From the IMG/VR virus record IMGVR_UViG_3300009001_000002, positions 1 through 61,190 of that record: 61,190 nucleotides of DNA. The stretch is one strand, 5' to 3'. This DNA is from a virus. Its lineage: Duplodnaviria > Caudoviricetes. The notes below the pieces were generated by a model. That model did not search any database. It saw only the letters and a list, made by a program, of their open reading frames with translations, and had not been told where the DNA came from. Below, piece after piece: positions 1 through 60,165 of the stretch (position 1 is its first letter; each line of letters starts with the position of its first letter). A program made the translations under genes and the position numbers.

Positions 1-123
1 AAAGCAATTGAGTTAATGAGTGATAGTGAATTAAAAGATTATCGGGATAAGCAACTATTAGACTATGAGGACGTATTTTGGTCTAAAGAGGAATTAAAAA
101 ACTTTATAATAGATTTACTATGA
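1..123. repeat. 123-bp terminal direct repeat, left copy (circular-assembly overlap)
   Basis: 1-123 is identical to 61068-61190; it encodes the 3' end of the last ORF, whose TGA overlaps the ATG at 120 (ATGA). Confidence 0.95.
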
Positions 124-671
124 ACGGAATATTAATTGTAGAAGGGCCAGATGGTGCTGGTAAGACTACATTAATAAATCAACTTAGAGAACACTGGTTA
201 TTTAAAACTCGCTATATGCATCTTCGAGTGCATAAAGAAATGGAAAAGTGGCATTGCGCTACTGCGAGAAGAGCCATTCGATTATCAAAAGATTATCTTG
301 TTATACTAGATCGACACTGGCCGAGTGAACAAATCTATTCTTATGAACGATCACCTGGTCCAAGCTACGACCCTACGAATATGGTTGATTGGCTAAAGAG
401 TCATGGAGCAATCTATATATGGGCTATACCAGAAGATTATGAAAGATTAATTGAAGAACATAAAACTAGAAGAGAAGAAAGACACGAAGAGTACCACGAT
501 ATATCTAAAGTTGTTAAAAGATATTACGATCACTGGTACGGTACTTATGAAGGACCAGATAATTATTTAAAGAAGATACAACCATTAAATAAAAGAGATG
601 ACTTCATACGATACGATCGGTTTACTGATAAAGATATTTTAGATAAAATAATAGATAGATTAAGACCATAG
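120..671 (+). CDS. P-loop dNMP kinase (thymidylate-kinase-like)
   Basis: IVEGPDGAGKTT Walker A and ILDRHW (DR) motif; adjacent to the TS homologue. Confidence 0.8.
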   Translation: MNGILIVEGPDGAGKTTLINQLREHWLFKTRYMHLRVHKEMEKWHCATARRAIRLSKDYLVILDRHWPSEQIYSYERSPGPSYDPTNMVDWLKSHGAIYIWAIPEDYERLIEEHKTRREERHEEYHDISKVVKRYYDHWYGTYEGPDNYLKKIQPLNKRDDFIRYDRFTDKDILDKIIDRLRP

Positions 672-684
672 AAAGGAAGAAAGA

Positions 685-1464
685 ATGCCTATGAATCATG
701 CTAATGAAGTTTATCGCAATCTAATTGATGAAGTAGAAGATAGAGGATTCGGAGCAAACCCTCGTGGTATGTTTACGAAAGAGATTATCGGACACACGAC
801 TAGATGCGATATGAGTTCACCTATCGTTACGATACCAGAAAGAGAACTTGGATATAAGTTCATGTTCGCTGAAGCACACTGGATATTATCAGGTGATAAT
901 CGAGTATCGACAATTAAACCTTACTCTAACGTTATTAAAAGATTTAGTGATGACGGAGTATTTTATTTCGGAGCCTACGGCCCTAAGATCGTAGATCAAT
1001 TACCTTATATCTGTAAAGCTTTAAGTGATGATATAGATACTCGTCAAGCTTGTATTAATATATGGAGAGAGAAACCACCGGTATCGAAAGACGTACCTTG
1101 CACGTTATCTTTACAGTTCTTAGTTCGCAGAGATACTTTATATGTTATTGCGAATATGAGAAGTAATGATATATGGCTCGGTTGGCCTTACGATAACTTT
1201 AACTTTAGTATGATTGGCTTATCTGTCTGTCTTTTAATGAAAGAAATTCATGGTAAAGATCTTAAATTAGGAATGCTTACTAATAATGCTGGTAGTAGAC
1301 ATCTTTATAAAGAGAACTTTGAAAAGGCTTTTAAAGTTGTGGATTCTGAAGAAATAGGAAAATCTTATCCTACTTTTAAACCTGAGAACTTTAACAGCTT
1401 CGAAGATTTAAAGTATCGTTTACACGCATGGAAAGATAATCCTGATGAATTTTTTACAGCATAG
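685..1464 (+). CDS. Thymidylate-synthase-family enzyme, probably a dCMP hydroxymethylase/methylase/hydroxylase
   Basis: DTRQA, VPC catalytic Cys139, MRSNDIWLGWPYD with Asp170 where dUMP-specific ThyA has Asn; HLY motif. Confidence 0.8.
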   Translation: MPMNHANEVYRNLIDEVEDRGFGANPRGMFTKEIIGHTTRCDMSSPIVTIPERELGYKFMFAEAHWILSGDNRVSTIKPYSNVIKRFSDDGVFYFGAYGPKIVDQLPYICKALSDDIDTRQACINIWREKPPVSKDVPCTLSLQFLVRRDTLYVIANMRSNDIWLGWPYDNFNFSMIGLSVCLLMKEIHGKDLKLGMLTNNAGSRHLYKENFEKAFKVVDSEEIGKSYPTFKPENFNSFEDLKYRLHAWKDNPDEFFTA

Positions 1465-1906
1465 ACCTTCGAAAGATGAATACTTTATGGATATGGCACT
1501 TCTTGTGTCAGAGAGAAGTACGTGTCTTAGAAGAAAAGTTGGTGCTGTTTTAATTAATAAAAGAAAACATGTTCTTGCTACAGGGTATAATGGTGTGGCA
1601 TCAGGGCAACCTCATTGTTTAGATATACCATGCATTGGTGCTAACTCAGCATCAGGAACTGATTTAGATTTATGTGAAGCTGTTCATGCGGAACAGAACG
1701 CATTACTTCAGTGTAGAAATGTGTTTGAAATCGATACTTGCTACGTTACAGTATCTCCTTGCATGACGTGTACTAAGTTATTATTAAATACGAGTTGTCA
1801 GACTATTATCTTTGAAGAAGATTACGTTGATCAGAAAGCAAGACTATTATGGGAACGACACGATAGAAAGTGGGTAAGGATTGACGGATCTTTTCAAACC
1901 CACTAG
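1445..1906 (+). CDS. dCMP deaminase
   Basis: RSTCLRRKVGA, TGYNG, HAEQNA and SPCMTC zinc motifs. Confidence 0.92.
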   Translation: MNFLQHRPSKDEYFMDMALLVSERSTCLRRKVGAVLINKRKHVLATGYNGVASGQPHCLDIPCIGANSASGTDLDLCEAVHAEQNALLQCRNVFEIDTCYVTVSPCMTCTKLLLNTSCQTIIFEEDYVDQKARLLWERHDRKWVRIDGSFQTH

Positions 1907-10883: not shown

Positions 10884-11360
10884 ATGCGTGACGAATATCA
10901 AGAATTAGAAAACAACCTTATCGATACAGTTCGCTATTTTAAATCTGATAGTAAACTACAAGATAGGGCTTTTAAGAACGCCTACACTATGTTGATATAT
11001 AGACAGATGGATACGATTAATCTTGCTATATCTAGATTACAGAGTTTAGTTCAATCATGGGAACTATGCGATGGCATGGACGATATAAATGAATTACCAG
11101 GTTTCTGTGAGAACTATCCATTCAAACATTCACTAGATGAAATGGATACTATGTGGGGTGATATGAATGATGAGCAACGTAAAGAATATAATGCTAACAA
11201 GTTTATGGAACTAAAACAAAGACGTAGAGAATTAGGAGACAGAAAATATATACCAGATAGTGAGATTGTCGAAGAGCCTGAATCTGAAGATTACAGAAGA
11301 GGTTTTAAAGATGGTGAAGAACGTGCTAGAGAACACTATACTGGTGAAGTCAGAGATTAA
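10884..11360 (+). CDS. Hypothetical early protein (paralog of 11419-11742)
   Basis: Shared M..IN..I.RL...PGF..NYPFK..L.E....WG. Confidence 0.65.
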   Translation: MRDEYQELENNLIDTVRYFKSDSKLQDRAFKNAYTMLIYRQMDTINLAISRLQSLVQSWELCDGMDDINELPGFCENYPFKHSLDEMDTMWGDMNDEQRKEYNANKFMELKQRRRELGDRKYIPDSEIVEEPESEDYRRGFKDGEERAREHYTGEVRD

Positions 11361-11418: not shown

Positions 11419-11742
11419 ATGGACGTAAAAAAGATTTGGCAAGACAAAGAAATTAACTTCTCTATGCAAGAAATGCTTGCTCAGAACTATGAGGAAGTAC
11501 AACATAGAGCGAAAGCATATCGCTATATGGCAATTATAAATGAATCCATAAAGAGGTTAAAAGAAATCCAAGAGAAGTATTGGGTTAGTGTATTAGCTAG
11601 TGATTATAGTGACAAGAAGTTAGAAGATATCCCAGGCTTTGGTTATAACTATCCGTTCAAATGCGATCTATCAGAACTAAAACCTAATTGGGGAGAGTAC
11701 CCATGTTTCGCTCCTGTAGAAGAGGAAAATAACAATGAGTGA
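11419..11742 (+). CDS. Hypothetical early protein (paralog of 10884-11360)
   Basis: Same motif and a duplicated promoter/RBS. Confidence 0.65.
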   Translation: MDVKKIWQDKEINFSMQEMLAQNYEEVQHRAKAYRYMAIINESIKRLKEIQEKYWVSVLASDYSDKKLEDIPGFGYNYPFKCDLSELKPNWGEYPCFAPVEEENNNE

Positions 11743-12474: not shown

Positions 12475-12936
12475 ATGGATAAAGGACCCGATAATATTAT
12501 TGATTTTACTAGTGCCGAAAATAAGATTTTATCAGACAAGGAAAAGAAGTTTGTTGAATTCATATTTCAAGGTTTAGGTAAGAAACAAGCGGCTTTAGAA
12601 GCTGGTTACGCACAATCTGCAGCGCACGTTCAAGCGACACGCCTACTAAAGAAAGATAAAATACGCAAGGCCCTTGATCGATTACGCTCTCTTCAACACC
12701 AACAAACAGTTCATACGATGGACAAGGAGATCGAAGCTATTGATGCCATGATCCAAGAAGCTAGAGACAGAGGGCAAATCGGTGCAGCGGTCCAGGCAGC
12801 TAGACTCAAAGCACAAATGTTAGGGTACCTTGTTGATAAGAAAGAGATTAAGACAACAAACCTTGACACCATGAGCGAGGACGACATCGTCAATTATCTT
12901 GATTCATTAAAAGCATCCTACAGCAACACGCAGTAA
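12475..12936 (+). CDS. terS: Terminase small subunit
   Basis: LSDKEKKFV...KQAALEAGYAQSAAHVQATRLLK HTH, then coiled coil and A...LKAQMLG. Confidence 0.8.
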   Translation: MDKGPDNIIDFTSAENKILSDKEKKFVEFIFQGLGKKQAALEAGYAQSAAHVQATRLLKKDKIRKALDRLRSLQHQQTVHTMDKEIEAIDAMIQEARDRGQIGAAVQAARLKAQMLGYLVDKKEIKTTNLDTMSEDDIVNYLDSLKASYSNTQ

Positions 12937-13070: not shown

Positions 13071-13163
13071 ACAAAAAACTAAATGTCATTATTTATAATA
13101 AAGATGTTTACTTATGCGGTTTACTTCGATATATTGGTATTAGAAATAAGAAAGGAAATGACT

Positions 13164-13526
13164 ATGAATAAAAAAACCGAAACTAAACTACCTAGAACTG
13201 TTAATCAGATCGGAAACGATATCTGTCTTTTTAGACTGGTTAACCCTAAACAGCATGGAAGTAAATCTCATGCGATTTACTCAAAAGCACAGAAAGCTAC
13301 TACTATCAAGGAAGCTTTCGAACAGGGATATAGAACTATTGATATCGCATACGATAGCATGAGTAATGGGAAGTTTAAGAAACCTAATGTACTTATCGCA
13401 AGATATCTTAAAAAAGACCATAAGGAATTATACTTGACATTCCTTAAAGAATTTGAGGGCATCAAGCTTTCACCTCAAATGGAAAAGAATGTGAAAGAAT
13501 TCACAGCATTAGTTAACAAATTATAA
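13164..13526 (+). CDS. NPK-domain protein (paralog 2); start reassigned from 13083
   Basis: AAAGGAA RBS, promoter TTTACT-N17-TATATT (13107-13135); RLVNPKQHGSKS...TTIKE...GYRTIDIAYD; ends VNKL. Confidence 0.7.
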   Translation: MNKKTETKLPRTVNQIGNDICLFRLVNPKQHGSKSHAIYSKAQKATTIKEAFEQGYRTIDIAYDSMSNGKFKKPNVLIARYLKKDHKELYLTFLKEFEGIKLSPQMEKNVKEFTALVNKL

Positions 13527-13534
13527 TTCGAATT

Positions 13535-13560
13535 GGGGACCTTCGGGTCCCCTTTTTTTT
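13535..13560 (+). terminator. Rho-independent terminator
   Basis: GGGGACC-TTCG-GGTCCCC followed by 8 T. Confidence 0.92.
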
Positions 13561-13564
13561 ATTC

Positions 13565-13720
13565 TTGATCGATTGATCCCTGTTGATCAGTTGATCCTTG
13601 ACTCTTGATCATTGACGTTTGTCGTTAGACAAAGTACGTAGTTAGTAGTTTGTCTATATTGTATATAATAAACAATCGATTGCGCTTCGTAAGCAAAGCT
13701 CTGCGCAACTCTGATCAACT
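13565..13720. repeat. 7-bp-period repeat array 2, rich in GATC and palindromes
   Basis: TTGA at 13565, 13573, 13583, 13591, 13598, 13605, 13612; CCTTGACTCTTGATC shared with array 1. Confidence 0.75.
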
Positions 13721-13784: not shown

Positions 13785-13847
13785 ATGGACTTAATACTGT
13801 ATATATTACTAATTGCTTTTATAGCTATTACTACTACGCAATTTTAA
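13785..13847 (+). CDS. Unannotated 20-aa hydrophobic peptide MDLILYILLIAFIAITTTQF
   Basis: Promoter TTTAGA-N17-TATTCT and TAGAAAGGAA RBS; twin of 9018-9080. Confidence 0.55.
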   Translation: MDLILYILLIAFIAITTTQF

Positions 13848-13976
13848 GTTCTTTATAAAGAAATATATTTAATAAAAAAAATTAAAAAAAAGTTAAAAAA
13901 TAATTTTACTTTTTTTAAAAAATATGAAATAAATATACTATTCTTTAATATAAAGAATAAAGAAAGGAAAAAGAAA

Positions 13977-14366
13977 ATGAATAAAACTAAAGTAGAAGAA
14001 AAAGGAAAAGGAAAACTAAATAAATTTCCTTCTTCTTTAATAAGAATTAAAGATAATTTAATTCTTCATAGATTAGTAAACGATAAGAAAGGAAAATCGT
14101 TTACTAGATTAGAGAATTATAAATTCTCTACTACTATAGAAAATTCCGTTAAAAACGGAATGAGTAAAGACGATTACGATTATAATACTTCTAAATTAAA
14201 GACTATCTATTCGATAGATTTAAATAATCTAAGAAAAGAAAATAAACTTAGATACTTAGATACTATTAATCTTAATCTTTCATTTCTTAAAGATAGTAAG
14301 ATAACTAATAAAGATGAATTATTATCTTTAAATAAGAAAGCGTTAGAAGAAGTAAATAAATTATAA
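13977..14366 (+). CDS. Divergent NPK-domain protein (paralog 3), compositionally purged
   Basis: MNKT start, HRLVNDKKGKS...TTIE...G....DY, ends VNKL; AAAGGA RBS. Confidence 0.7.
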   Translation: MNKTKVEEKGKGKLNKFPSSLIRIKDNLILHRLVNDKKGKSFTRLENYKFSTTIENSVKNGMSKDDYDYNTSKLKTIYSIDLNNLRKENKLRYLDTINLNLSFLKDSKITNKDELLSLNKKALEEVNKL

Positions 14367-14376
14367 TCTTAATTTT

Positions 14377-14410
14377 TTCTAGAGAGAGTAAATACTCTCT
14401 CTAGAATTTT
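14377..14410 (+). terminator. Rho-independent terminator
   Basis: 14-bp inverted repeat TTCTAGAGAGAGTA/TACTCTCTCTAGAA followed by TTTT. Confidence 0.75.
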
Positions 14411-14534
14411 CGATTAAGTTTATAGAAAAAAATTTCGTATAAGTTTCAAAAAGCGAAAGGGCGGCTGATAAAGAGGATCGAAGAGCCGCAACAAATGGCT
14501 TTTATGTGTATAAATTTCGTATATAAATAAATAA

Positions 14535-15185
14535 ATGGCTTTTCTCACTGTGAATATTCCCCCTATTGAAGTTTATGTCAAAAAAGAGTATCTTTACGAC
14601 CATGAAAAAGGTCATGGAGAATTTGAAAAAGGCGTGTGGGTCACTGCTAAGTCGATTACCGGCAGAGCTTTGTATTTCGAAACGTACTTATATAATTCTG
14701 GCGCTCTTTATGATAAGTTGCCTATATCTGCTTTCTGTTCAAAGCCAGTAGATAAAGACGATAGCTTACCACTAGAAGAGTTACAGTTATGGGATTGTTT
14801 TAGTTATCATGTAGCTGTAATCCAGAAATGTAATCCCGGGACAGGGCGTTGCAAGTATTTATCCCCAAGTAAAAATTGGCACTACGGAACTTATTTGTTC
14901 ACGATAGATTCTGCTCACCCTGATCCCAATATTCCTGATGTCGGATATTCTGAAGTCCCGAGCCAACATAAGTCGTTTAATATTCTAGAACTAGATAACG
15001 GCCACTATGCGGCGCAACCGAATAACCGAGTTATTTTTTATGACAAGAGTTTATCTCCAAAAGAAATGACGTTCCCTGATTATAAAGTTTCGACTATTGA
15101 ATATAGTGTCGAGCATCATTCTAAATGGGTCGCTGGAGATGATGAAAGTTTCTTTTATGAACTTAGAGATACTACAAAAAGCTGA
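14535..15185 (+). CDS. Conserved phage hypothetical protein
   Basis: NIPP...KEYLYD...LQLWDCFSY...AAQPNNR pattern seen in marine phages. Confidence 0.7.
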   Translation: MAFLTVNIPPIEVYVKKEYLYDHEKGHGEFEKGVWVTAKSITGRALYFETYLYNSGALYDKLPISAFCSKPVDKDDSLPLEELQLWDCFSYHVAVIQKCNPGTGRCKYLSPSKNWHYGTYLFTIDSAHPDPNIPDVGYSEVPSQHKSFNILELDNGHYAAQPNNRVIFYDKSLSPKEMTFPDYKVSTIEYSVEHHSKWVAGDDESFFYELRDTTKS

Positions 15186-16665
15186 ACAAATAATCTTAGA
15201 TAAGAACGCTCCTCAAGAGATTCGAGAAAAAGCGTTCCTGGTCATCAAGAATCAAAAAGAAAAACAGGAAGTATCTGGAGCACAAACTTCGATATTAAAG
15301 TTCGCTCAACACATGTATAATGGGTACTCGACACCTGCTCATATACAATTAATCGCAAAAAATTTAGAAGCTTTAGAACGAGATGAATTTGATCGTCTAG
15401 CGATTTTCATGCCACCAAGACATGGAAAGTCAATGCTATGTTCCGAGATGTTTCCTGCTTGGTTTCTCGGTCGTAATCCTAAAAATTTCGTTATTCAATC
15501 TACGTATGCTCAAGAACTAGCTGATGATTTTGGACGCAAGGTGCGTAACCACGTGAAATCGGAAGAGTTCCTTAAAGTTTTTCCGAACACGACACTGAGA
15601 GATGATTCAACTTCAGCGAAACGTTTTCACACCGTTCAAGGTGGAACGTATTCAGCGGTTGGTGCGGGTGGCGCAATTACCGGTCGTGGTGCACACTTAC
15701 TCATTATTGATGATCCGATTAAAGGGCGTGAAGATGCGGAATCTCAAGTTCAAAGAAGGAATCTCATTGAATGGTATAAGTCGGTTGCTTTCACACGATT
15801 AATGCCGGGCGGAAAAGTAATCATCATTCAAACACGATGGCACGAAGAAGATCTCGCCGGTTTCGTTTTAGAAAATGAACCAGGGCAGTGGAAAGTTTTA
15901 GATCTTCCTGCGATTAATGATAACGGGGATGCTCTCTGGCCTGAAGCCTATCCTCTTGAAAAATTAAAAAAGATTCAAGCGACAGTCGGAGAAAGAGTCT
16001 GGCAAAGTTTATACCAGCAGAAGCCATCAGCAGAACAGGGGCAAATCTTAAAAAGAGATTGGTGGCAAATATGGGATAAGAAAAGATTTCCTGGATGCCA
16101 CACGATCATTCAATCGTGGGATACGGCGTTTTCAGCGAAACAGTCAGCGGACTATTCAGCGAGAACAACGTGGGGAGTGTTTACACATATAGACGAAGAA
16201 GGAAGAGATCAAGCTTGTATAATTTTATTAGAAGCTTGGCGTAATCGTGTCGAGTATCCTGAACTACGAAAAGAGGCTCAACAATCATTTTTCGATTGGA
16301 AGCCCGATGTCGTCTTAGTCGAGAAACGAGCATCAGGACAAAGCTTACTTCAAGATCTACGAAGAGCAGGAATTCCTGTGAAAGAATTTACACCCGATCG
16401 AGATAAAGTTTCGAGAGCCCATGTCGTAGCTTCCATGTTAGAAACGGGACTCATTTGGGTTCCTAATGAAGCGTGGGTAGAAGATTTAATTGAAGAATGT
16501 GCTTCCTTTCCTTATGGAAAGCACGACGATTTAGTCGATACGTCAACTCAAGCGTGGCAGCTTATACGAGATAATTATTTAGTTTCTCACCCGAACGATC
16601 CCGAAGATGAAGAATGGGACGATAAACCTTATCGAGTAATACAGAAAAAGTCCTTTTACAGTTAA
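15097..16665 (+). CDS. terL: Terminase large subunit (true start probably near 15139-15157)
   Basis: MPPRHGKS Walker A, LLIIDDP Walker B, QTRWHEEDL, SWDTA and HDDLVD nuclease motifs. Confidence 0.95.
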   Translation: MNIVSSIILNGSLEMMKVSFMNLEILQKAEQIILDKNAPQEIREKAFLVIKNQKEKQEVSGAQTSILKFAQHMYNGYSTPAHIQLIAKNLEALERDEFDRLAIFMPPRHGKSMLCSEMFPAWFLGRNPKNFVIQSTYAQELADDFGRKVRNHVKSEEFLKVFPNTTLRDDSTSAKRFHTVQGGTYSAVGAGGAITGRGAHLLIIDDPIKGREDAESQVQRRNLIEWYKSVAFTRLMPGGKVIIIQTRWHEEDLAGFVLENEPGQWKVLDLPAINDNGDALWPEAYPLEKLKKIQATVGERVWQSLYQQKPSAEQGQILKRDWWQIWDKKRFPGCHTIIQSWDTAFSAKQSADYSARTTWGVFTHIDEEGRDQACIILLEAWRNRVEYPELRKEAQQSFFDWKPDVVLVEKRASGQSLLQDLRRAGIPVKEFTPDRDKVSRAHVVASMLETGLIWVPNEAWVEDLIEECASFPYGKHDDLVDTSTQAWQLIRDNYLVSHPNDPEDEEWDDKPYRVIQKKSFYS

Positions 16666-44716: not shown

Positions 44717-47667
44717 TGTCAATAGAAATTTTAAAAAAAATTAATTCTTCAAGTGATGAAGAACTAGATACAATTATTGGTAATCTCTCTGGAAATGTAA
44801 AAGAATCTAAAGAACTAGAAACTCTTGGCTACGATATAGATAAAATGAAAGCAGGAGTAGAAAATTATAATAAAGAACTTGAAAGATATTTAATAGATCA
44901 AGAAGTACAATATAAATTTCCATTTGAACCAGGTACTACTGAATTTGCAAATATAGAATTTCCAGAGGAAAAGAAATATGAAGCAATTGGGGATTTTAAA
45001 CCATCAAAATCAACATCTCTTCAATTACTAGGTTTAAACGCTGAAGAAACAGATGACTTAGCTAATTTTGCATATAATCTAATGTACGGTGCTTCTTCTC
45101 AAATGCCTAGAGATACTACTAAAGAATATGTAGGAAATGTTATTCAATATTTTAATCCTGATTCATCTATTGAAATGGCATACGCTAATGAATTACAACC
45201 AGAAACGCTTAAAGATATTAACAGAATACAGGAATTAGATGACTTAGGTTACAATCTAAATGTTAATGACGATCTTTTATTATACAGAACTGATGGTGGA
45301 AACTGGTCAGTTGTAAATGCGCCGGGTATGTCTAAAGGAGATATTGGATATTTTGGAAAAGATATTGCAAGTATTTTATTAGAGATACCAGCATATGCTG
45401 GCGGAGGTGCTGTTGGTGCTGGTATAGCGGCAGGTGTCGTTGAATCATCTGCTCAATTATTAGCTTGGTACACTAATGCTAAATTATCAGGTCAAGAACC
45501 TACTGCTGAAGAAGGTGTTCAAGTATTTATTGATTCACTTCCTGATGCCGCTATTACAGGAGTATCTACCGCTGTTTTAACGAAACTAGGAGATAAAGTA
45601 TTTAGGTGGGTGTTAAGTAAAGCAGGAAAGAAAACTTTACCAGAAGGAGAGATAGAAGATTCAGCGGCAGCAATAGCTGCCGGTCAAACTAACGTAGATA
45701 AGTTAAATAAAATTAATCAAGAAATACAAGAAACTACAAAAGATTCTAGTAAAGGAGTACAACTTACATTAGGAGAAGCTACGGGTGGATATGAACAAAT
45801 AATAAAAGAAAATACTATTTCAAAGATACCTGAATTAGCCCCTAAATATAATCAAGCATATAAAAATAAAATAAACAAATCTCAAGATGCTTTAGAGACA
45901 TATTCAAAAACTTTATTTGACACTGACGTTGCTCCTCGTACAGCGGTAGTTAGTGAAATGGGGCAAGACATACAGAAAGGATTAACTGAAGGTGTAGAGA
46001 AAGATGTGCAAAGAATACTAGATTCTTACACTACTGATTTTGCTAGTGTTACTAAAATATATGACTTAGTAAGTAAAACAACGGGTCAAGCATCCGATTT
46101 ATTAGATGATTTTGGATTTATTCAAAAAGTATTTCAAGATCAAAATAAAATAATTCAAGGTGAATTAAAAACAATAGAAGATTCCGTTTCTAATATATTA
46201 AATAAATATGGACCTGAAGTAACTGATAATTTAGTTAAGTTATCTACTTTTCAAAAAACTTTAAAACAAATTGATGCTAATCGATCTTTTTTAAATAAAT
46301 TAGAACCGGGTACGAATGAGCATACTTTATTTAAAAACTTTTTAGAATTTACTAAAGACGGAAGAAAAGTAAAAAATTTAACTCTTCAAGAAACTCAACA
46401 ATTAATCCAATACATAGATGCTTTATCTGGAGATGCTTTTTCTTCAGCGTTAAAAGGTGTTCCCGATGCTAAAAAAGGAGAATTTAAACAATTACTTTTC
46501 GCTTTAAGAACTGATTTAAAACGATCTTTAAAAAAGAATTTAAAAGGCGATGCTGACGCTATCTTTGATGCATATGAAAATATGAAAAATATTCGTAGAG
46601 ATTTTGATAATAACGTAGTAAATCAGTTATTTCAAAAATCTAATTCTGGTAAACTTAAATTATCAGACGGAAACATAATTAATCATGTATTAAGTGATCC
46701 TCGTTTCTCTGGTGAAATGGCAAGTATCTTAGATCAAACTCCTAACTTTGCGAAAAAGGCAGCTTTTGAACAATCAATTATTGATGACTACTATAAAAAT
46801 GTTTTAAATGATATGAGTTTGTCGCCTAATGAAATAGCTAAAAAAGCAGAAGCTTGGTTAAAGAATAATAAATATGTTGATAATTTCTTCACTGGTGAAA
46901 ATAGAAATATTTTAAAACAGATGAAAAGCCCGTTAAAATTTAAACAGTTAGTAGAAGCTAATAAAAAAGCTAGTGATCGTGCTTTACAAAAAGTTCAAAG
47001 AGAATTTGAAGGAATTATGGGATTAGACCCTGCTAATTATTTAGATTTCTTTCAAAAAAATCCTACATCTTTTAATCGAGTAATTAATTTAATAAGAACA
47101 GCTGATGCTGGATTAGCTAGAAATATAGAAAAACAAACTAAAGAATTCTTTTTAAAGCAGTTCTTTGAATCAACTTCTGCTTATGATTCAAGAGCAGGTA
47201 TGTATGCTTTTAATGGAGAAAAGTTAAAAGAATTTTTAAACGTAAACAATAATAAAGAAATGCTTAAAAATATCTTCGGAACTCAAAAAGCAGATAAATT
47301 CATTAATACTTTTTCAGATATTGCTGATTTATTAAATACTTTTCAAAAGAAAATAGTTGATGCTGAAAAAGAACCAGTTATTGCTAGAAGTATTCAAAAT
47401 TTATTTCTCGGTCAGTTAGATAGAAAACGCACAATTATTCGTGGTATAAAACAATCAGCTAAACTATTAGGGGCTGAAGAGTATCTTGATAATGTTTTAG
47501 ATTTTGAAAAGTACGCTAAATTACTAGGAGAACAAGAATTTTTAAATCCTAGAGCTACAGTTGTAGCGGCGCAGTATGTAGAAGCTGAAGAACCTGCGGA
47601 AGATTCTATGATAGATAAAATTACAGAAGGCATTATTAGTAAAGGTGGAGAATACGTTAACCCTTAG
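44716..47667 (+). CDS. Large internal virion/ejection protein (putative)
   Basis: 983 aa with a GA-rich hydrophobic stretch; last gene of the virion module. Confidence 0.55.
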   Translation: MSIEILKKINSSSDEELDTIIGNLSGNVKESKELETLGYDIDKMKAGVENYNKELERYLIDQEVQYKFPFEPGTTEFANIEFPEEKKYEAIGDFKPSKSTSLQLLGLNAEETDDLANFAYNLMYGASSQMPRDTTKEYVGNVIQYFNPDSSIEMAYANELQPETLKDINRIQELDDLGYNLNVNDDLLLYRTDGGNWSVVNAPGMSKGDIGYFGKDIASILLEIPAYAGGGAVGAGIAAGVVESSAQLLAWYTNAKLSGQEPTAEEGVQVFIDSLPDAAITGVSTAVLTKLGDKVFRWVLSKAGKKTLPEGEIEDSAAAIAAGQTNVDKLNKINQEIQETTKDSSKGVQLTLGEATGGYEQIIKENTISKIPELAPKYNQAYKNKINKSQDALETYSKTLFDTDVAPRTAVVSEMGQDIQKGLTEGVEKDVQRILDSYTTDFASVTKIYDLVSKTTGQASDLLDDFGFIQKVFQDQNKIIQGELKTIEDSVSNILNKYGPEVTDNLVKLSTFQKTLKQIDANRSFLNKLEPGTNEHTLFKNFLEFTKDGRKVKNLTLQETQQLIQYIDALSGDAFSSALKGVPDAKKGEFKQLLFALRTDLKRSLKKNLKGDADAIFDAYENMKNIRRDFDNNVVNQLFQKSNSGKLKLSDGNIINHVLSDPRFSGEMASILDQTPNFAKKAAFEQSIIDDYYKNVLNDMSLSPNEIAKKAEAWLKNNKYVDNFFTGENRNILKQMKSPLKFKQLVEANKKASDRALQKVQREFEGIMGLDPANYLDFFQKNPTSFNRVINLIRTADAGLARNIEKQTKEFFLKQFFESTSAYDSRAGMYAFNGEKLKEFLNVNNNKEMLKNIFGTQKADKFINTFSDIADLLNTFQKKIVDAEKEPVIARSIQNLFLGQLDRKRTIIRGIKQSAKLLGAEEYLDNVLDFEKYAKLLGEQEFLNPRATVVAAQYVEAEEPAEDSMIDKITEGIISKGGEYVNP

Positions 47668-55450: not shown

Positions 55451-56233
55451 TTGTATTTATTTTTCGACACCGAAACAAACGGCTTGTGGCGCCGTGATCT
55501 AGAAGCTACTGATCCAAATCAACCACATTTAGTACAAATAGCTGCACAGTTAGTAGATGAAGATGAAAAAGTTGTTAACCAATATTCGATGCTCATTCGA
55601 CCAGAAGGTTGGAGTATTCCTAAAGATGCTGAAGATGTTCATGGCATCTCCAATGAGAAGGCATCTACTTATGGTGTACCTTTGGTTAGTGCCCTCTCTG
55701 TGTTTAATTCTATGGCAGCTTCAGCGCATACAATTGTCGCTCATAACTTAGCTTTTGACTTGCAAATAATTGCAAGAGATTTTCATTATTTAAAGAAACC
55801 TTTTCGACAACCAAAAGACTTGCATTGTACTATGATGAGTACGAAAGATATTCTAAAATTAGAAAGTGATTTTGATGATTATAAATTTCCTAAGTTAATT
55901 GAAACGTATGAACACTTTTTTAATGTAGGATATTTCGATTGGCACGATGCTTTAGCTGACGTTCAAGTATGTCGAATTATTTATTTTCATTTAAAGAATC
56001 AAGGAATTGAGTTAAAAGCACCACGACAGCTTCCTAAAAAGCTGTTAAAAGTAATGAATAATGACGATTATGAAGAATTAATCGGTTTAATTTCATCTAT
56101 AAATAGAGATAATATAAGCGATTGGGAGAGTAATTTTCTCAAAGATCAAGAAGAAAGAATAGAGAAATACAAAGAGAAAGTTATGATCTCCGATAAACAA
56201 ATGAACATTATAAGGAGAATGGCAGAAAAATGA
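55451..56233 (+). CDS. DEDDh 3'-5' exonuclease (DnaQ-like)
   Basis: FDTETNG, VHGIS, AHNLAFD, HDALADV. Confidence 0.88.
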   Translation: MYLFFDTETNGLWRRDLEATDPNQPHLVQIAAQLVDEDEKVVNQYSMLIRPEGWSIPKDAEDVHGISNEKASTYGVPLVSALSVFNSMAASAHTIVAHNLAFDLQIIARDFHYLKKPFRQPKDLHCTMMSTKDILKLESDFDDYKFPKLIETYEHFFNVGYFDWHDALADVQVCRIIYFHLKNQGIELKAPRQLPKKLLKVMNNDDYEELIGLISSINRDNISDWESNFLKDQEERIEKYKEKVMISDKQMNIIRRMAEK

Positions 56234-57186
56234 AACGCATCGTTGTAACCGGAGCAACAGGATTTCTAGGAAGAAATCTATGTGAGAAGTTATTAGAACA
56301 AGGACATCAAGTTATTGGTGTTGATAATCATTTAACAGGGAGTGAATCTAATATTTTAGATGAGGATAATTATAGTTTTTATGAAGCTGATATCGTTAAA
56401 GACGATCTATCAATGCTTCTTCGAGAACATAATAAAAAAGGAATACACTATATCTATAACTTAGCTTGTCCAGCATCGCCTGATCATTATAAAACTCATG
56501 CATTTCAAACTTTAGAAGTTTGCTTTAATGGAATGAAGAATATGATTCAGTATGCGTTAGAACAAGGAAATGTTCGTATGCTTCATACTTCTACAAGTGA
56601 AGTATATGGAGATCCTGAAGTAGATGATCAGAAAGAAACGTATTGGGGAAATGTAAATTCTTTTGGACCTCGTGCTTGTTATGATGAAGGTAAAAGAGTT
56701 GCGGAAGCTTTAATCTATGAATCAATAAATAAATTAAAATCGAATATAGGAATCGCAAGAATCTTTAATACTTACGGTCCTTATATGGCGATTAATGATG
56801 GTAGAGTAATATCGAATTTTATTACTCAAGGTTTACAGGGTAACCATCTTATCATATACGGCGGAGGTTTTCAATCTAGATCTTTTTGTTATGTTGATGA
56901 TACAATAGAAGGTTTAATTCGAATCTGTGAAAGTGATTATAAAGAAATATTTAACGTAGGAAATCCTGATCGTCATGCTATCGTAGAGATAGCAGAAGTA
57001 ATTGCTGAAAAGACTGACGCACCTGGTTGGAAGAACGATGCTCCTTCACCAGATGATCCTATGCATCGAAAGCCTAATATAGATAAGATTCAACACTATC
57101 TAGGTTGGACTCCTCAAGTAAAATTAAATCAAGGATTAGACGACACGATAGAATATTTTAAATATGCTCTCAAAAGACAAAACTAA
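56230..57186 (+). CDS. UDP-glucuronate decarboxylase (UDP-xylose synthase)-like SDR
   Basis: TGATGFLG, LACPASP.HY, TSTSEVYGDP, YWGNVN..GPRACYDEGKRVAE, RIFNTYGP, DGRVISNF, RSFCYVDD, DDP..R.P.I. Confidence 0.85.
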   Translation: MKRIVVTGATGFLGRNLCEKLLEQGHQVIGVDNHLTGSESNILDEDNYSFYEADIVKDDLSMLLREHNKKGIHYIYNLACPASPDHYKTHAFQTLEVCFNGMKNMIQYALEQGNVRMLHTSTSEVYGDPEVDDQKETYWGNVNSFGPRACYDEGKRVAEALIYESINKLKSNIGIARIFNTYGPYMAINDGRVISNFITQGLQGNHLIIYGGGFQSRSFCYVDDTIEGLIRICESDYKEIFNVGNPDRHAIVEIAEVIAEKTDAPGWKNDAPSPDDPMHRKPNIDKIQHYLGWTPQVKLNQGLDDTIEYFKYALKRQN

Positions 57187-58678
57187 AATAATTCTAGGTC
57201 CACCAGGTACGGGTAAAACCACTACATTATTAAATATCTTAGAAGAAGAAATAGAAAGTGGTATAGCACCAGAACGTATTGGCTTCGTATCATTTACACG
57301 CAGAGCGATTAAAGAAGCGAGAGATAGAACACTAGAAAAGTTTAAAGAGATTGATAAAGATCAATTAGACTACTTTAGAACACTTCATAGTTTATGTTTT
57401 AGATCTCTCGGTCTTAATAGTGAAAGAATATTTAAAGGTCTACACGTCACGGAATTTAAAAAGATACTTCGAATCGATATGACAGGCGATGTTGATGAAG
57501 AACAGATCGTTAATAACGGAGCAAGTTTAGGAGATCGCATGTTATTTTGCGATCAGTTAGCTAGGGCAAAGATGTGCCCACTAAAAGATACATGGAGAGA
57601 ATTAAAATGTGATTATTCGTGGGAAGAACAGAAACTATTTTCTGATACTCTCGTTGATTTTAAATTAAAAAGAAATCTTCTTGACTTTACTGATATGTTA
57701 AGTTCATTTCTCGAATCGGAATACACTCCTGATATTGATATTTTATTTGTTGATGAAGCACAAGACTTAACGAAGCTACAGTGGAAAGTAATTGATAAAC
57801 TATCTCATTCCGTTAAGACTATTTATATTGCAGGAGATGACGATCAAGCGATCTATAAATGGGCAGGTGCTGATGTAGATACGTTTCTTAGTCTTGATGG
57901 TGAGATTAGAATACTGCCATTTACTTATCGATTAAAAAAGCGTGTCTTTGATTTAGCGAATCAAGTAACAAAAAGAATTATAAATAGATACGATAAAGAT
58001 TGGTCTAGTTCAGAGGAACAGGGATCAGTAAACTACATTGAATCGTATGAGTATGCTGATATGTCAGAAGGAAGTTGGCTTATCTTAGCTAGAAATAACT
58101 ATCAGTTATATCCGATTGAAAAGTATTTAAAGCAGAAAGGATACATGTTTGAGAGAAAGTTTGGTGGATTCAAAGCTAATAAGTATGTTGTAGCAATTAG
58201 AACTTGGTTAGATTTAATCGAAGGAAAAGAAGTGCCTTACGATTCAATTATGAAGCTTTATAGCTGTATGAGAACAGGAGAAGGAATTACTCGAGGATTT
58301 AAAAACGGAAACAGTTTAGATAAGGAAAAAACATATACTTATAAAGAACTAAAAGATACTCACGGACTTATCGCAGAGGGTAAATGGGAAGAAGCTTTAA
58401 CTTTAATTCCTGATGACGATAAATATTATTATCAAGCTTTAGAAAAGACAGGTGATTTATTTTATAGCGAACCGAGAATACGATTAAGCACAATACATGG
58501 AAGTAAAGGTGCTGAAGCTGAAAATGTAATGTTACTCACTGATGTATCTTATGCTACATGGAAGAACATAAATGATCAATCTGATGATGAACATCGTGTT
58601 TTTTATGTAGGAATTACGAGAGCAAAGAATAATCTATTCATAGTGAATCCACAAGGATTGTATAGTTATCCTATATAA
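57164..58678 (+). CDS. UvrD/Rep-like SF1 helicase
   Basis: GPPGTGKT, SFTRRA, VDEAQD, GDDDQAIY, STIHGSKGAEA, YVGITRAK. Confidence 0.9.
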   Translation: MLSKDKTKIILGPPGTGKTTTLLNILEEEIESGIAPERIGFVSFTRRAIKEARDRTLEKFKEIDKDQLDYFRTLHSLCFRSLGLNSERIFKGLHVTEFKKILRIDMTGDVDEEQIVNNGASLGDRMLFCDQLARAKMCPLKDTWRELKCDYSWEEQKLFSDTLVDFKLKRNLLDFTDMLSSFLESEYTPDIDILFVDEAQDLTKLQWKVIDKLSHSVKTIYIAGDDDQAIYKWAGADVDTFLSLDGEIRILPFTYRLKKRVFDLANQVTKRIINRYDKDWSSSEEQGSVNYIESYEYADMSEGSWLILARNNYQLYPIEKYLKQKGYMFERKFGGFKANKYVVAIRTWLDLIEGKEVPYDSIMKLYSCMRTGEGITRGFKNGNSLDKEKTYTYKELKDTHGLIAEGKWEEALTLIPDDDKYYYQALEKTGDLFYSEPRIRLSTIHGSKGAEAENVMLLTDVSYATWKNINDQSDDEHRVFYVGITRAKNNLFIVNPQGLYSYPI

Positions 58679-58741
58679 TAAAAATCTTTGTTTTAAATGA
58701 AAAATAAATTAATATTATTTAAGTTAGAAAGGAGCACTTAA

Positions 58742-59791: not shown

Positions 59792-60165
59792 GCCAATATA
59801 AAGATATTGATGCTTTTCATAAAAAGTTTAAATTTAATCAAGGTAAAGGAATTAAGTCAATGGATTATAGTTTTGGAAATTGGCGTGTTGACTTTCTTAT
59901 GGAAGAAATTGCTGAACTAACTGATGCTTTAGATAATAAAGATGACGTAGAAATACTAGATGCTTTAGTTGATATCTGCTACGTAGCTATGGGAACAGCG
60001 TGGTTAATGGGTTTACCATTTGAAAAAGCTTGGAAAGAAGTACAGAGATCTAATATGGAAAAGATTAGACAAGCAAGTGAACGATCTGAATTTGACGTAG
60101 TTAAACCTGAAGGTTGGAAGAAACCTGATATACGAGGAATTATTAAGAAATGGCAAAAGTCTTAA
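59788..60165 (+). CDS. All-alpha NTP pyrophosphohydrolase (MazG/PRA-PH-like; candidate dCTPase)
   Basis: EEIAEL...EILDALVDICYV.MG...EVQRSNMEK...KPEGW. Confidence 0.8.
   Translation: MSQYKDIDAFHKKFKFNQGKGIKSMDYSFGNWRVDFLMEEIAELTDALDNKDDVEILDALVDICYVAMGTAWLMGLPFEKAWKEVQRSNMEKIRQASERSEFDVVKPEGWKKPDIRGIIKKWQKS

What the first reader, a model, noticed from the sequence alone, without database searches (positions are those of the whole stretch)
13850..14445. An early gene purged of CA/TG, GC and CC/GG, down to its amino-acid content
Seen (hand count over 13977-14366): CA/TG occurs 5 times, always as ATGA/TCAT; GG/CC occurs 6 times, always as GGAA/TTCC; GC occurs once; CG occurs 8 times. The 129-aa protein has no Gln, Cys or Trp and one each of Ala, Pro and His, while its paralog at 13164 uses these residues freely. 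AT-richness alone would not spare CG while removing CA/TG. Inference: this is probably the first-injected or unprotected segment near the physical genome end, selected to lack host restriction targets or the phage's own modification contexts so it can be expressed at once, for example as an anti-defence gene.
Basis: partly seen in the sequence, partly recalled or inferred. Interest (0 to 1): 0.8.

Follow-up and report, generated by a model that had tools for sequence, protein, structure and literature searches.

The report
Phage gene cassette missing four dinucleotides
A 600-base gene cassette in an uncultured marine phage, and its counterparts in over a hundred related phage contigs, is written almost without the DNA steps CA/TG and CC/GG, which strips several amino acids from its proteins; this points to an unidentified factor that reads very short DNA words only at this locus.

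Summary
The counts are exact and the core signal is real. Window 13840-14446 holds 6 CA/TG against 45 expected (0 of 20,000 shuffles). The ban also holds at codon boundaries. This is the only such stretch in the genome.

Not every part of the claim holds. The GC shortage is mostly AT-richness. The CC/GG shortage is weak in this gene alone. The CG excess is a by-product of avoiding TG.

The finding is one mild member of a larger class. There is one purged zone per genome, 600-1250 bp long, between the small terminase gene and the structural operon. I found it in about 100 related contigs. Most have 0-1 CA/TG against about 30 expected. CC/GG, GATC and GANTC are purged as well. The zone proteins lack Gln, His, Cys, Trp, Gly and Pro. 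The zone also covers the promoter, the terminator and unrelated neighbouring small genes. One allele (L028) is fully relaxed.

The avoided words form a reverse-complement-closed set, so the constraint acts on double-stranded DNA. My best reading (0.4) is a hypervariable cassette kept invisible to site-reading DNA enzymes, like the leading regions of T5 and T7-type phages. "Early" and "near the genome end" could not be tested. A generic restriction-proofing test was weak.

The parts
12475..12936 (+). Small terminase subunit gene; conserved left flank of the variable region
   Evidence: Pfam Terminase_2 E=2.4e-10 and phrog_51. It is 91-98% nt identical in relatives, while the region to its right is not.
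13164..13526 (+). Normal-composition paralog of the purged gene (120 aa)
   Evidence: BLASTP 31% identity, E=1e-6. Same HMM family. CA+TG is 38 against 41.5 expected. A TTTACT motif lies upstream at 13107.
13535..13552 (+). Intrinsic terminator of the paralog
   Evidence: 7-pair stem with 6 GC pairs, followed by a T run.
13565..13610 (+). Five TTGATC repeats in 46 bp; a candidate protein-binding array (pac-like or iteron-like)
   Evidence: Relatives carry other TTGA-type or GGATCA clusters at the same place. The function is inferred.
13786..13848 (+). Tiny hydrophobic ORF (20 aa) at the left edge of the zone
   Evidence: Read. Tiny hydrophobic ORFs of 19-24 aa with ribosome-binding sites sit at the same place in distant relatives, inside their purged zones.
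13840..14446 (.). The purged zone: 607 bp, 18.8% GC, with 6 CA/TG, 7 CC/GG, 1 GC and 10 CG
   Evidence: It is the only such zone in the window.
13849..13862 (.). Palindrome TTCTTTATAAAGAA (operator-like)
   Evidence: the pattern TTCTTTA-N0-4-TAAAGAA occurs twice in the window, both here. Expected by chance: 0.01.
13905..13910 (+). TTTACT motif, a possible -35 element without TG or CA
   Evidence: Read. TTTACT is visible upstream of the gene in most distant loci. ATTTAC is the most enriched 6-mer in pooled zones, 58 against 30.7. The promoter role is inferred.
13941..13957 (.). Second palindrome TTCTTTAATATAAAGAA, just upstream of the ribosome-binding site
   Evidence: It is also present in the relaxed allele L028.
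13977..14366 (+). The purged gene: a 129-aa basic protein of unknown function
   Evidence: There are 49 homologues and 30 clusters at 50% identity in 1.84 billion proteins. The AlphaFold2 model has pLDDT 85.3. No Pfam or PHROG family matches. No structural relative was found.
14377..14406 (+). Intrinsic terminator of the purged gene
   Evidence: 13-pair stem followed by a T run.
14407..14446 (+). Two direct repeats (TTTTCGATTAAGTTT and ATTTCGTATAAGTTT) at the right edge of the zone
   Evidence: Read. The pair TCGTATTAAGTTT / TCGTATAAAGTTT is conserved downstream of the terminator in distant relatives.
14505..14515 (+). TGTGTATAAAT, a conserved promoter-like element ahead of the structural operon
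   Evidence: unique at this site in the window. It is conserved in relatives. The promoter role is inferred.
14535..15185 (+). First gene of the conserved right flank (phrog_3704)
   Evidence: E=1.3e-93. It is 92-100% nt identical in relatives.
15097..16665 (+). Large terminase subunit gene
   Evidence: 42-45% identity to the TerL of phage 023Pt_psg01 and Pelagibacter phage HTVC027P.

Best explanation
The gene belongs to a small, self-contained, fast-varying cassette. The cassette has its own promoter region, operator-like palindromes, a tiny hydrophobic ORF, one or more small proteins and a terminator. It sits once per genome between the small terminase gene and the structural operon in a group of uncultured aquatic phages of about 60 kb.

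Strong purifying selection on the double-stranded DNA keeps a defined set of short words out of the whole cassette. The set is TG/CA, GG/CC, GATC, GANTC and, more weakly, ACGT, GTAC and CGCG. The proteins have adapted by giving up the amino acids whose codons need those words. The CG excess is a by-product: before a G-starting codon, a C-ending codon replaces a T-ending one.

The most likely reason is that the cassette must work while it is not covered by whatever lets the rest of the genome carry these words. It has therefore been made a non-substrate for enzymes that read short DNA sites. These could be restriction, phosphorothioate or CRISPR-PAM-dependent systems, or methyltransferases. The parallel is the first-entering regions of T5 and T7-type phages.

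Shown here: the purge, its extent, its conservation and its strand symmetry. Inferred: the selective agent, the timing of expression and the position relative to the DNA end.
For: - The purge is extreme and local. There is one zone in each of the window, G001, G002, G003 and G004. Zones occur only at this locus in 581 kb of related loci.
- It is maintained over deep divergence. Orthologues at 86-99% identity have 4-7 CA/TG against 27-31 expected in 22 of 22 loci. Orthologues at 56% identity have 8-9 against about 32. Among 56 distinct distant proteins from 80 loci, 53 have an observed/expected ratio below 0.3; the median is 0.
- It acts on nucleotides, not codons. In 18 purged genes, 1 of 490 codons before a G-starting codon ends in T, against 44 of 332 in normal paralogs. 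Likewise 1 of 1239 codons before an A-starting codon ends in C, against 109 of 555.
- The avoided set is closed under reverse complement: CA 0.06 with TG 0.10, and CC 0.26 with GG 0.37, plus the palindromes GATC and GANTC.
- The zone includes non-coding DNA about 100-115 bp upstream of the start codon and 60-195 bp past the stop codon.
- It extends over unrelated extra genes where these are present.
- GATC (6 against 69) and GAATC/GATTC (1 against 35.6) are purged in the zones but near normal in the rest of these genomes (observed/expected 0.85-0.89 and 0.83-0.94).
- The cassette is hypervariable between conserved flanks and its gene content varies.
- Relaxed alleles exist (L028 has 33 against 35; L047, L054, L091 and L097 have 12-16), so the protein itself does not need the bias.
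- Precedent exists. T5-like phages are restricted only if sites lie in the first-step-transfer region (PMC10644984, passages read). [quoted passage not shown]
Against: - The physical genome ends and the timing of expression are unknown.
- A pac- or cos-proximal end next to terminase genes is the first-packaged and last-ejected end in lambda, SPP1 and P22. I recall this from general knowledge and did not test it. That geometry would not put the zone in first.
- If packaging is headful, the ends are permuted and no segment is always first.
- The structural operon follows the cassette directly, which is an unusual order for an entry-first end.
- The generic test was weak. The island carries sites for 68 of 617 REBASE-type specificities, against 81.4 +/- 7.7 in shuffles and 76 in the relaxed allele. 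Banning GA/TC would remove more known sites (50%) than banning CA/TG (38%).
- AGCT, TCGA and CTAG are not avoided.
- No known anti-defence family or fold was found for the protein.
Confidence: 0.4

Rival explanations
1. Signal insulation. In DNA that is 80% A+T, host polymerase and ribosomes start easily by accident. The purge would remove the parts of host start signals on both strands: NTG start codons, the GG of ribosome-binding sites, and the TTG/TG of -35 and extended -10 elements. It would also remove the Dam and CcrM regulatory sites. A potent regulator would then be made only from its own controlled promoter and start site.
For: - In many loci the only TG in the whole unit is the start codon.
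- The conserved upstream motif is TTTACT, not a TTGACA-type box.
- No canonical sigma-70 promoter is found in the zone.
- Operator-like palindromes and a position directly ahead of the structural-operon promoter suggest a tightly controlled regulator.
Against: - A near-absolute ban on every TG/CA, whatever its context, is more than promoter or start-site avoidance needs.
- Symmetry on the antisense strand has no clear benefit.
- A crude count found only 10 of 72 residual GG ahead of an ORF start and 21 of 70 residual TG as plausible start codons. That pool includes zone edges and relaxed members.
- Other AT-rich parts of the genome, such as 45990-46596, are not purged.
Confidence: 0.2
2. Modification-free zone. 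The phage modifies its own DNA in short contexts that include the purged words. The cassette avoids those contexts so that it stays unmodified, for host polymerase or for a DNA-binding step. Because it is then naked, it must also avoid restriction sites that the modified remainder can carry.
For: - The phage encodes a thymidylate-synthase homologue, a dCMP deaminase, a nucleotide kinase, a MazG-like pyrophosphatase, a C5 DNA methyltransferase and a nucleotide-sugar epimerase.
- The methyltransferase and the synthase homologue are conserved in 3 of 5 related records, including both records that are at least 90% complete.
- Genome-wide, only CGCG is avoided (2 against 94.7), a site with no A or T.
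- This reading explains a two-tier pattern: contexts plus restriction sites.
Against: - No modification or modification context is known for these phages.
- Other genes that must be read early have normal composition.
- There is no evidence that such a modification blocks transcription.
- The two incomplete records lack the genes, which is uninformative.
Confidence: 0.15
3. RNA-level protection. The transcript avoids cleavage sites of one or more endoribonucleases, such as toxin or abortive-infection RNases, so that it can still be translated when other mRNAs are cut.
For: - ACA is absent.
- The zone roughly matches a transcription unit from promoter to terminator.
- In loci with a tiny upstream ORF, the zone may begin near the transcript start (the start site is not known).
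Against: - The avoided set is closed under reverse complement, which an RNA-only constraint does not predict.
- The purge appears to include the promoter's upstream element (inferred start site).
- GATC and GANTC are DNA enzyme sites.
Confidence: 0.08
4. Local context-specific hypermutation. A cytosine-deaminating or similar process, in the manner of fungal repeat-induced point mutation, acts on this region and removes CpA/TpG. Selection then only keeps the reading frames open.
For: - The pooled zones give (CpA+TpG)/(ApC+GpT) = 104/995 and TpA/ApT = 1.24. By thresholds I recall, these would score as repeat-induced point mutation.
- The region is AT-rich and hypervariable.
- A paralog lies nearby in many loci.
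- The phage has a deaminase-fold gene.
Against: - Loss of GG/CC, GATC and GANTC is not explained.
- C-to-T change at CpA turns Gln codons into stop codons, yet all frames are open.
- Many purged genes have no paralog within 4 kb.
- Coding parts are 95-98% identical between close relatives, like the flanks.
- TA is not in excess (odds ratio 0.96).
Confidence: 0.07
5. Foreign origin or drift. The cassette keeps the composition of a donor with an unusual signature.
For: Its composition differs sharply from its flanks.
Against: - I know of no genome signature with a CA/TG odds ratio near 0 (recalled knowledge).
- The bias persists across lineages whose proteins are under 50% identical.
- It decays in relaxed alleles.
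- No relatives were found in 185,579 species genomes with the patterns used.
Confidence: 0.03

Closest known systems
First-entering ('leading') regions of phages: T5 first-step-transfer DNA and the early-injected region of T7-type phages
   Same: - A short segment lacks sites that the rest of the genome carries.
- The segment is hypervariable.
- It holds small genes of unknown or anti-defence function with their own promoters.
(PMC10644984 passages; PMC12455610 abstract.)
   Different: - Here whole dinucleotides are removed, not single 4-8 bp sites, and the proteins lose six amino acids.
- The zone lies between the terminase genes and is followed by the structural operon.
- Entry order and genome ends are unknown.
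- The protein matches no known anti-restriction family.
Genome-wide restriction-site avoidance in phages
   Same: Selection against short, often palindromic words. The same genomes avoid CGCG throughout.
   Different: The avoidance here is confined to one zone of 0.6-1.2 kb. It includes the non-palindromic dinucleotides TG/CA and GG/CC.
Repeat-induced point mutation in fungi
   Same: CpA/TpG loss, AT-richness, and a duplicated gene nearby in many loci.
   Different: The frames are intact and conserved. GG/CC, GATC and GANTC are also lost. No TA excess is seen. A paralog is not required. The host of the process would be a phage, not a fungus.
Vertebrate CpG islands
   Same: Local CpG excess with a TpG/CpA deficit relative to the surroundings.
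   Different: The zone is 19% G+C. The CpG excess follows from avoiding TG at codon junctions. No link to methylation-driven decay is seen; genome-wide CG is normal.
ACA-less mRNAs that resist MazF-type RNases
   Same: A coding sequence rid of a very short word by codon choice.
   Different: The avoidance is symmetric on both strands and extends into flanking non-coding DNA.

Membership tests
Leading / first-injected phage region with site avoidance | Lies at the genome end that enters the cell first | not testable with these tools
   The 123-bp end overlap lies inside a coding region, so this is an assembly circle. All 24 runs are held as contigs. Contig ends show no sharp common terminus.
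Leading / first-injected phage region with site avoidance | Lacks recognition words that occur freely elsewhere in the same genome | tested here: met
   The zones are purged of TG/CA, CC/GG, GATC and GANTC. The rest of these genomes is near expectation for them. In the window's own 607 bp, GATC and GANTC are 0, but only about 1-2 would be expected.
Leading / first-injected phage region with site avoidance | Hypervariable, with changing small-gene content | tested here: met
   Nucleotide identity is 34-79% inside the region against 92-100% in the flanks. Extra unrelated genes occur in L034, L069 and L071. One to three family members occur per locus.
Leading / first-injected phage region with site avoidance | Transcribed first, by host polymerase | not testable with these tools
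   No RNA reads could be laid. There is no canonical sigma-70 promoter, only a conserved TTTACT motif.
Leading / first-injected phage region with site avoidance | Poorer in known restriction sites than composition alone gives | tested here: inconclusive
   The island has sites for 68 specificities against 81.4 +/- 7.7 in shuffles. The relaxed allele has 76.
Repeat-induced point mutation | CpA to TpA bias leading to stop codons and gene decay in duplicated DNA | tested here: not met
   The composition indices fit. However, the ORFs are intact in all loci. There is no TA excess. Purged genes occur without a paralog.
CpG island | High G+C together with high CpG observed/expected | tested here: not met
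   The CpG odds ratio is 3.7 but G+C is about 19%.
P1-type pac site (for the TTGATC array at 13565-13610) | Cluster of TGATC-containing hexamers near the terminase genes (motif recalled, not from a call) | tested here: inconclusive
   Five TTGATC lie within 46 bp, 630 bp after the TerS gene. Relatives carry different repeats at the same place. Cleavage and methylation dependence cannot be tested here.
Any Pfam / PHROG protein family (129-aa product) | Profile match above threshold | tested here: not met
   The best Pfam match is E=0.73. There is no PHROG match. Structure searches gave Foldseek E of at least 2.4 and VIA Z of at most 4.1.

The most novel reading that the evidence does not exclude
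These cassettes may reveal an undescribed agent that reads double-stranded DNA at the level of a degenerate dinucleotide: 5'-KG-3'/5'-CM-3', that is TG or GG. It could be a widespread host defence, or a phage DNA-modifying or DNA-cutting enzyme. Its pressure would be so strong at one locus that evolution has produced natural, folded proteins written with 12 of 16 dinucleotides and a 13-letter amino-acid alphabet.
Probability: 0.3. Interest if true: 0.9.

Novelty: new variant of a known kind. Interest (0 to 1): 0.85.

Why it matters
- If the purge marks DNA that must survive unprotected, it gives a purely sequence-based way to find the exposed, first-acting cassettes of uncultured phages, and with them new anti-defence or master-regulator genes.
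- The avoided word list (TG/CA, GG/CC, GATC, GANTC) reads out what the unknown hosts, or the phage itself, can recognise.
- The proteins are natural examples of folding with a reduced alphabet: no Gly, Pro, Gln, His, Cys or Trp. That is of interest for protein design and for ideas about early proteins.
- Three literature searches turned up no description of dinucleotide-level purging of a phage gene cassette. These were limited word searches of open-access text.

Tried and rejected
- Paralog dependence. In loci L003-L031, 28 of 29 had the normal paralog upstream plus a purged gene, and only the relaxed L028 lacked it. I rejected a causal link because many distant loci with about 4 kb of upstream sequence have a fully purged gene and no second family member.
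- 'GG only in ribosome-binding sites, TG only in start codons'. A crude count gave 10 of 72 and 21 of 70. I do not claim this beyond the per-locus view.
- Generic restriction-proofing: weak.
- Variant test in the close clade. 43 variant alleles create CA/TG against 71.4 expected (P=3e-5). The control gene gave 39 against 37.2. The flanking parts of that alignment are poor and context was taken from the consensus, so I give it little weight.
- Contig-end positions. They are broadly spread, with a mild pile-up 250-750 bp upstream at the repeat arrays and no sharp shared terminus. Assembly breaks at variable repeats explain this equally well.
- Cultured relatives. There was no DNA match. There was no protein match for the purged gene, a distant member or the paralog in 50,697 phage records (the low-complexity filter was on). 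HTVC027P and 023Pt_psg01 have no purged zone in the 12-14 kb stretches I fetched around their terminase genes. Their lowest 300-bp counts were 39 and 32, against medians of 57 and 60.5. The HTVC027P transcriptome paper (search listing only) therefore does not apply.
- Prophage or host search. No relatives were found in genome contigs with two queries.
- Function. Pfam, PHROG, Foldseek against the PDB, VIA-align wide and the ESM Atlas (paralog only) gave nothing usable. Weak profile hits (E 1e-4 to 7e-4) to a repeated module in long eukaryote-like proteins with PHD fingers are a lead only.
- TTTCGTAT as a repeated promoter word: not enriched in the window (106 against 99.7).
- TGTGTATAAAT as a general late promoter: it occurs only once ahead of a gene.
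- Supplementary files of papers were not consulted. None bears on a claim here.
Full report
WHAT THE WINDOW IS

The window is a whole virus record of 61,190 bases with 35.6% G+C. Its two ends share 123 bases that lie inside a coding region. This is the signature of a circular-type assembly, not of mapped ends.

Almost all genes are on the + strand. Replication and nucleotide-metabolism genes lie at about 49-61 kb and 0-12 kb:
- a family A DNA polymerase, a primase and helicases;
- a thymidylate-synthase homologue, a dCMP deaminase and a nucleotide kinase;
- a C5 DNA methyltransferase, a MazG-like pyrophosphatase and a nucleotide-sugar epimerase.

The small terminase gene is at 12475-12936. The large terminase gene is at 15097-16665, followed by portal and tail genes up to about 47 kb. 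The finding therefore lies between the two terminase genes, directly ahead of the structural operon. It is not in an evident early region.

CHECK OF THE OBSERVATION

The CA/TG shortage is far beyond chance:
- The symmetrised odds ratio is 0.15, against 0.96 for the genome. It is the lowest of all 390-bp windows, whose 1st percentile is 0.51.
- A 608-bp stretch (13839 to 14447) has no CA/TG outside ATGA/TCAT. The next longest such stretch is 92 bp.
- The island has 6 against 45.0 +/- 5.1 in mononucleotide shuffles.
- The gene has 5 against 14.3 when its own synonymous codons are permuted, and 24.7 when the protein is re-encoded with the phage's codon usage.
- In each of these three controls, 0 of 20,000 trials reached the observed value.

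The synonymous-permutation result shows that the ban also holds across codon junctions. It therefore acts on nucleotides, not on codon or tRNA choice.

The other claims are weaker for this gene alone. GC depletion gives P=0.02 to 0.38, depending on the control. CC/GG depletion gives P=0.13 against mononucleotide shuffles. CG excess gives P=0.025 to 0.0005.

THE UNIT

The purged stretch, 13840-14446, is a complete small expression unit. In order it contains:
- an AT-rich upstream region with a TTTACT motif;
- two copies of the palindrome TTCTTTA-N(0-3)-TAAAGAA, which are the only two in the window (0.01 expected by chance);
- a ribosome-binding site;
- the 129-aa ORF;
- a 13-pair terminator hairpin;
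- two direct repeats.

To its left lie a 20-aa hydrophobic ORF, an array of five TTGATC in 46 bp and a normal-composition paralog. The paralog is 31% identical (E=1e-6).

The protein is basic. Its AlphaFold2 model is confident (pLDDT 85.3). It matches no Pfam or PHROG family and no solved fold.

RELATIVES: CLOSE AND INTERMEDIATE

- The protein has 49 homologues in the large protein collection.
- All 22 orthologous viral loci (86-99% protein identity) share the bias, with 4-7 CA/TG against 27-31 expected.
- Three metagenome loci whose protein is only 56% identical still have 8-9 against about 32.
- One locus, L028 (63% identical), is not depleted at all: 33 against 35, with 2 CG.
- The flanking genes of all these loci are 92-100% identical in DNA, while the region in between is 34-79% identical.

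The cassette is therefore a hypervariable insert between conserved genes. The bias is maintained over a depth at which silent sites must be saturated. The protein can also be encoded without the bias.

RELATIVES: DISTANT

A profile search found 30 clusters at 50% identity among 1.84 billion proteins. Most of the distant members lack Gln, Cys, Trp, His and internal Met.

I fetched their DNA: 80 viral loci encoding 56 distinct proteins. They are purged more completely than the window. The median is 0 CA/TG against about 28-30 expected. 53 of 56 have an observed/expected ratio below 0.3 and the other three lie at 0.43-0.45. They carry 6-22 CG against roughly 4 expected.

In many loci the start codon is the only TG from about 100-115 bp upstream of the gene to 60-195 bp past its stop.

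Across 581 kb of loci, low-CA/TG zones occur only at this locus, with one zone of 260-1250 bp per locus. Nine of 109 loci fall below the zone criterion; these are the relaxed or less strict alleles.

In whole related records there is exactly one zone per genome, in G001, G002, G003, G004 and the window. In three of these records (G002, G003 and G004) some 300-bp windows hold none of CA, TG, CC or GG, against a median of about 50. The G005 zone lies at the edge of what I fetched.

WHAT IS PURGED

I pooled 23 dereplicated zones, 17,265 bases in total. The odds ratios are CA 0.06, TG 0.10, CC 0.26, GG 0.37, CG 3.70 and GC 1.19.

Beyond dinucleotides:
- GATC is 6 against 69 expected, both strands summed.
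- GAATC/GATTC is 1 against 35.6.
- GANTC occurs once in all.
- ACGT (0.38), GTAC (0.45) and CGCG (0.19) are lower.
- AGCT, TCGA and CTAG are near expectation.

Outside the zones, the same genomes avoid only CGCG: 2 against 94.7 in the window and 8 against 164 in relatives' flanks. They carry GATC and GANTC at 0.6-0.94 of expectation.

In 18 purged genes:
- Gln, His, Cys and Trp are absent.
- Gly is 1 codon and Pro is 3 codons out of about 2,390.
- Met is essentially the start codon only.
- Normal paralogs have Gln 4.0%, Gly 2.6% and Pro 3.0%.
- A codon before a G-starting codon ends in T in 1 of 490 cases, against 44 of 332 in normal paralogs.
- A codon before an A-starting codon ends in C in 1 of 1239 cases, against 109 of 555.
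- 181 of 305 CG lie across codon junctions. The CG excess is therefore a consequence of avoiding TG.

The window's own gene is a milder member. It keeps four Gly, one Pro and one His.

THE PROPERTY BELONGS TO THE CASSETTE, NOT TO THE PROTEIN FAMILY

Normal-composition family members sit a few hundred bp upstream in many loci (28-46 CA/TG against 40-48 expected). Many fully purged genes have no such neighbour within 4 kb. This removes my earlier idea that the paralog is needed.

Where zones are longer (1.0-1.25 kb), they contain further small genes that are unrelated in sequence, each with the same kind of upstream region. Examples are a 60-aa protein in L069 and L071, an 89-aa protein in L034, and hydrophobic ORFs of 19-24 aa.

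A shared architecture recurs:
1. repeat arrays after the terminase gene or the paralog;
2. a TTTACT motif;
3. an operator-like palindrome;
4. the ribosome-binding site and gene;
5. a terminator;
6. two TCGTATWAAGTTT repeats;
7. a TG..TATAAAT element;
8. the structural operon.

HOW IT MOST LIKELY WORKS

Three points are shown. The avoided words are removed from coding and non-coding DNA alike. The avoided set is closed under reverse complement. The purge is maintained for a long time but can be lost. Together these indicate purifying selection on the double-stranded DNA of the cassette.

An RNA-only constraint or a tRNA constraint does not predict the strand symmetry or the codon-junction effect.

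A hypermutation process of the repeat-induced-point-mutation kind fits the CpA/TpG indices. It does not fit the loss of GG/CC, GATC and GANTC, the intact frames, the lack of a TA excess, or the near-normal divergence of coding parts between close relatives.

What remains is that this one cassette must not contain words that the rest of the genome may contain. The known situation of that kind is DNA that is exposed before the phage's protection is in place.
- T5-like phages are restricted only through sites in the first-step-transfer region. This holds for restriction-modification, CRISPR and Ssp systems (PMC10644984, passages read).
- In a group of Autographiviridae, the first-injected region decides sensitivity, and such regions are highly variable and rich in anti-defence genes (PMC12455610, abstract read).

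The cassette's hypervariability, changing small-gene content, own promoters and position next to the terminase-proximal repeat arrays fit this picture. I therefore take a cassette kept blind to site-reading enzymes as the best reading, at confidence 0.4.

WHAT SPEAKS AGAINST IT

- The ends and the timing of expression are untested.
- The usual geometry of packaging from a site next to the terminase genes would make this end the last to enter. This is recalled knowledge of lambda, SPP1 and P22.
- The structural operon follows the cassette directly.
- A test with 617 REBASE-type recognition sequences shows that the purge removes few sites beyond what AT-richness already removes: 68 against 81.4 +/- 7.7, and 76 in the relaxed allele.
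- Banning CA/TG is not the most efficient choice against known sites.
- A specific, still unknown reader of 5'-KG-3'/5'-CM-3' steps is therefore as plausible as a broad mixture of enzymes. I keep that as the most novel reading.

The rivals are given with odds in their own section: signal insulation, a modification-free zone tied to the phage's own methyltransferase or thymidylate-synthase-homologue genes, RNA protection, hypermutation and foreign origin.

COMPARISON WITH WHAT IS KNOWN, AND NOVELTY

The closest known kinds are leading-region site avoidance, genome-wide restriction-site avoidance, fungal repeat-induced point mutation, CpG islands and ACA-less mRNAs. Each shares one aspect. None shows a near-absolute, strand-symmetric removal of four dinucleotides plus GATC and GANTC from one cassette, with the matching loss of six amino acids.

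There is no cultured relative with the feature. No copy was found in bacterial genomes with the patterns used.

DNA of the stretch, or a part of it, is held by 20 sequencing runs from 14 studies, from estuary, lagoon, salt-marsh, seawater, sponge and soil-labelled samples. One of these runs may be the source of the record. The element is therefore real and widespread, not an assembly artefact.

Three word searches of the open literature found no description of such a purge.

VERDICT

I file it as a new variant of a known kind, namely local site avoidance. There is a fair chance that it reflects something categorically new. Interest: 0.85.

Noticed in passing
whole window outside 13840-14446; also flanks of L-loci: CGCG is almost absent genome-wide: 2 against 94.7 expected in the window and 8 against 164 in 109 kb of relatives' flanks. 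The other palindromic tetramers are near expectation. This suggests a CGCG-specific restriction pressure in the unknown hosts.
   Followed up: partly
window 13565-13610: Five TTGATC repeats lie within 46 bp, just after the paralog's terminator. Relatives carry other repeat arrays at the same place (GGATCA, TTGAGCA, TTGACGG, TGTGGC). These may be terminase small-subunit (pac) sites or iterons.
   Followed up: partly
L050, L058, L062, L067, L086, L093, L110 upstream of the purged gene: Repeats of GAAC-N7-GAAC with an 11-bp period (for example GAACGAAACGAGAAC) lie about 110-170 bp upstream of the start codon. The spacing matches the alphaproteobacterial SOS-box pattern as I recall it. They could equally be iterons for a phage protein.
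   Followed up: no
window 13786-13848 and equivalents in L032, L039, L049, L069, L071, L083: A tiny hydrophobic ORF of 19-24 aa with its own ribosome-binding site precedes the purged gene in many lineages. It looks like a small membrane peptide or a leader peptide.
   Followed up: no
window 120-1906 and 56230-60165: The gene set is typical of phages with a replaced or modified pyrimidine: a nucleotide kinase, a weakly matching thymidylate-synthase homologue, a dCMP deaminase, a MazG-like pyrophosphatase, a C5 DNA methyltransferase and a nucleotide-sugar epimerase. The methyltransferase and the synthase homologue are conserved in related records.
   Followed up: partly
window 10884-11360 and 11419-11742: Two adjacent genes share a C-terminal motif (…PGF..NYPFK…W G…), so they are tandem paralogs of unknown function. 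Neither matches a PHROG family.
   Followed up: no
window 14407-14446 and 14505-14515: Two direct repeats (TTCGATTAAGTTT and TTCGTATAAGTTT) are followed about 60 bp later by TGTGTATAAAT. This arrangement ahead of the structural operon is conserved in distant relatives. It looks like an activator-dependent promoter, and the zone protein is a candidate activator.
   Followed up: partly
P0073, P0075, P0076 (proteins): Long proteins, two of them with PHD fingers, contain one or two copies of a module resembling the conserved core of this phage family (…NPK..GS.S..RYE.YK.ATT…). The E-values are 1e-4 to 7e-4, so this is a weak lead to a DNA- or chromatin-binding domain.
   Followed up: partly
L046 1518-1943 and 2257-2679: One locus carries three family members in a row: one normal, one half-purged (15 against 36.6) and one purged (6 against 34.5). 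This is a natural series for studying how the purge is gained or lost.
   Followed up: no
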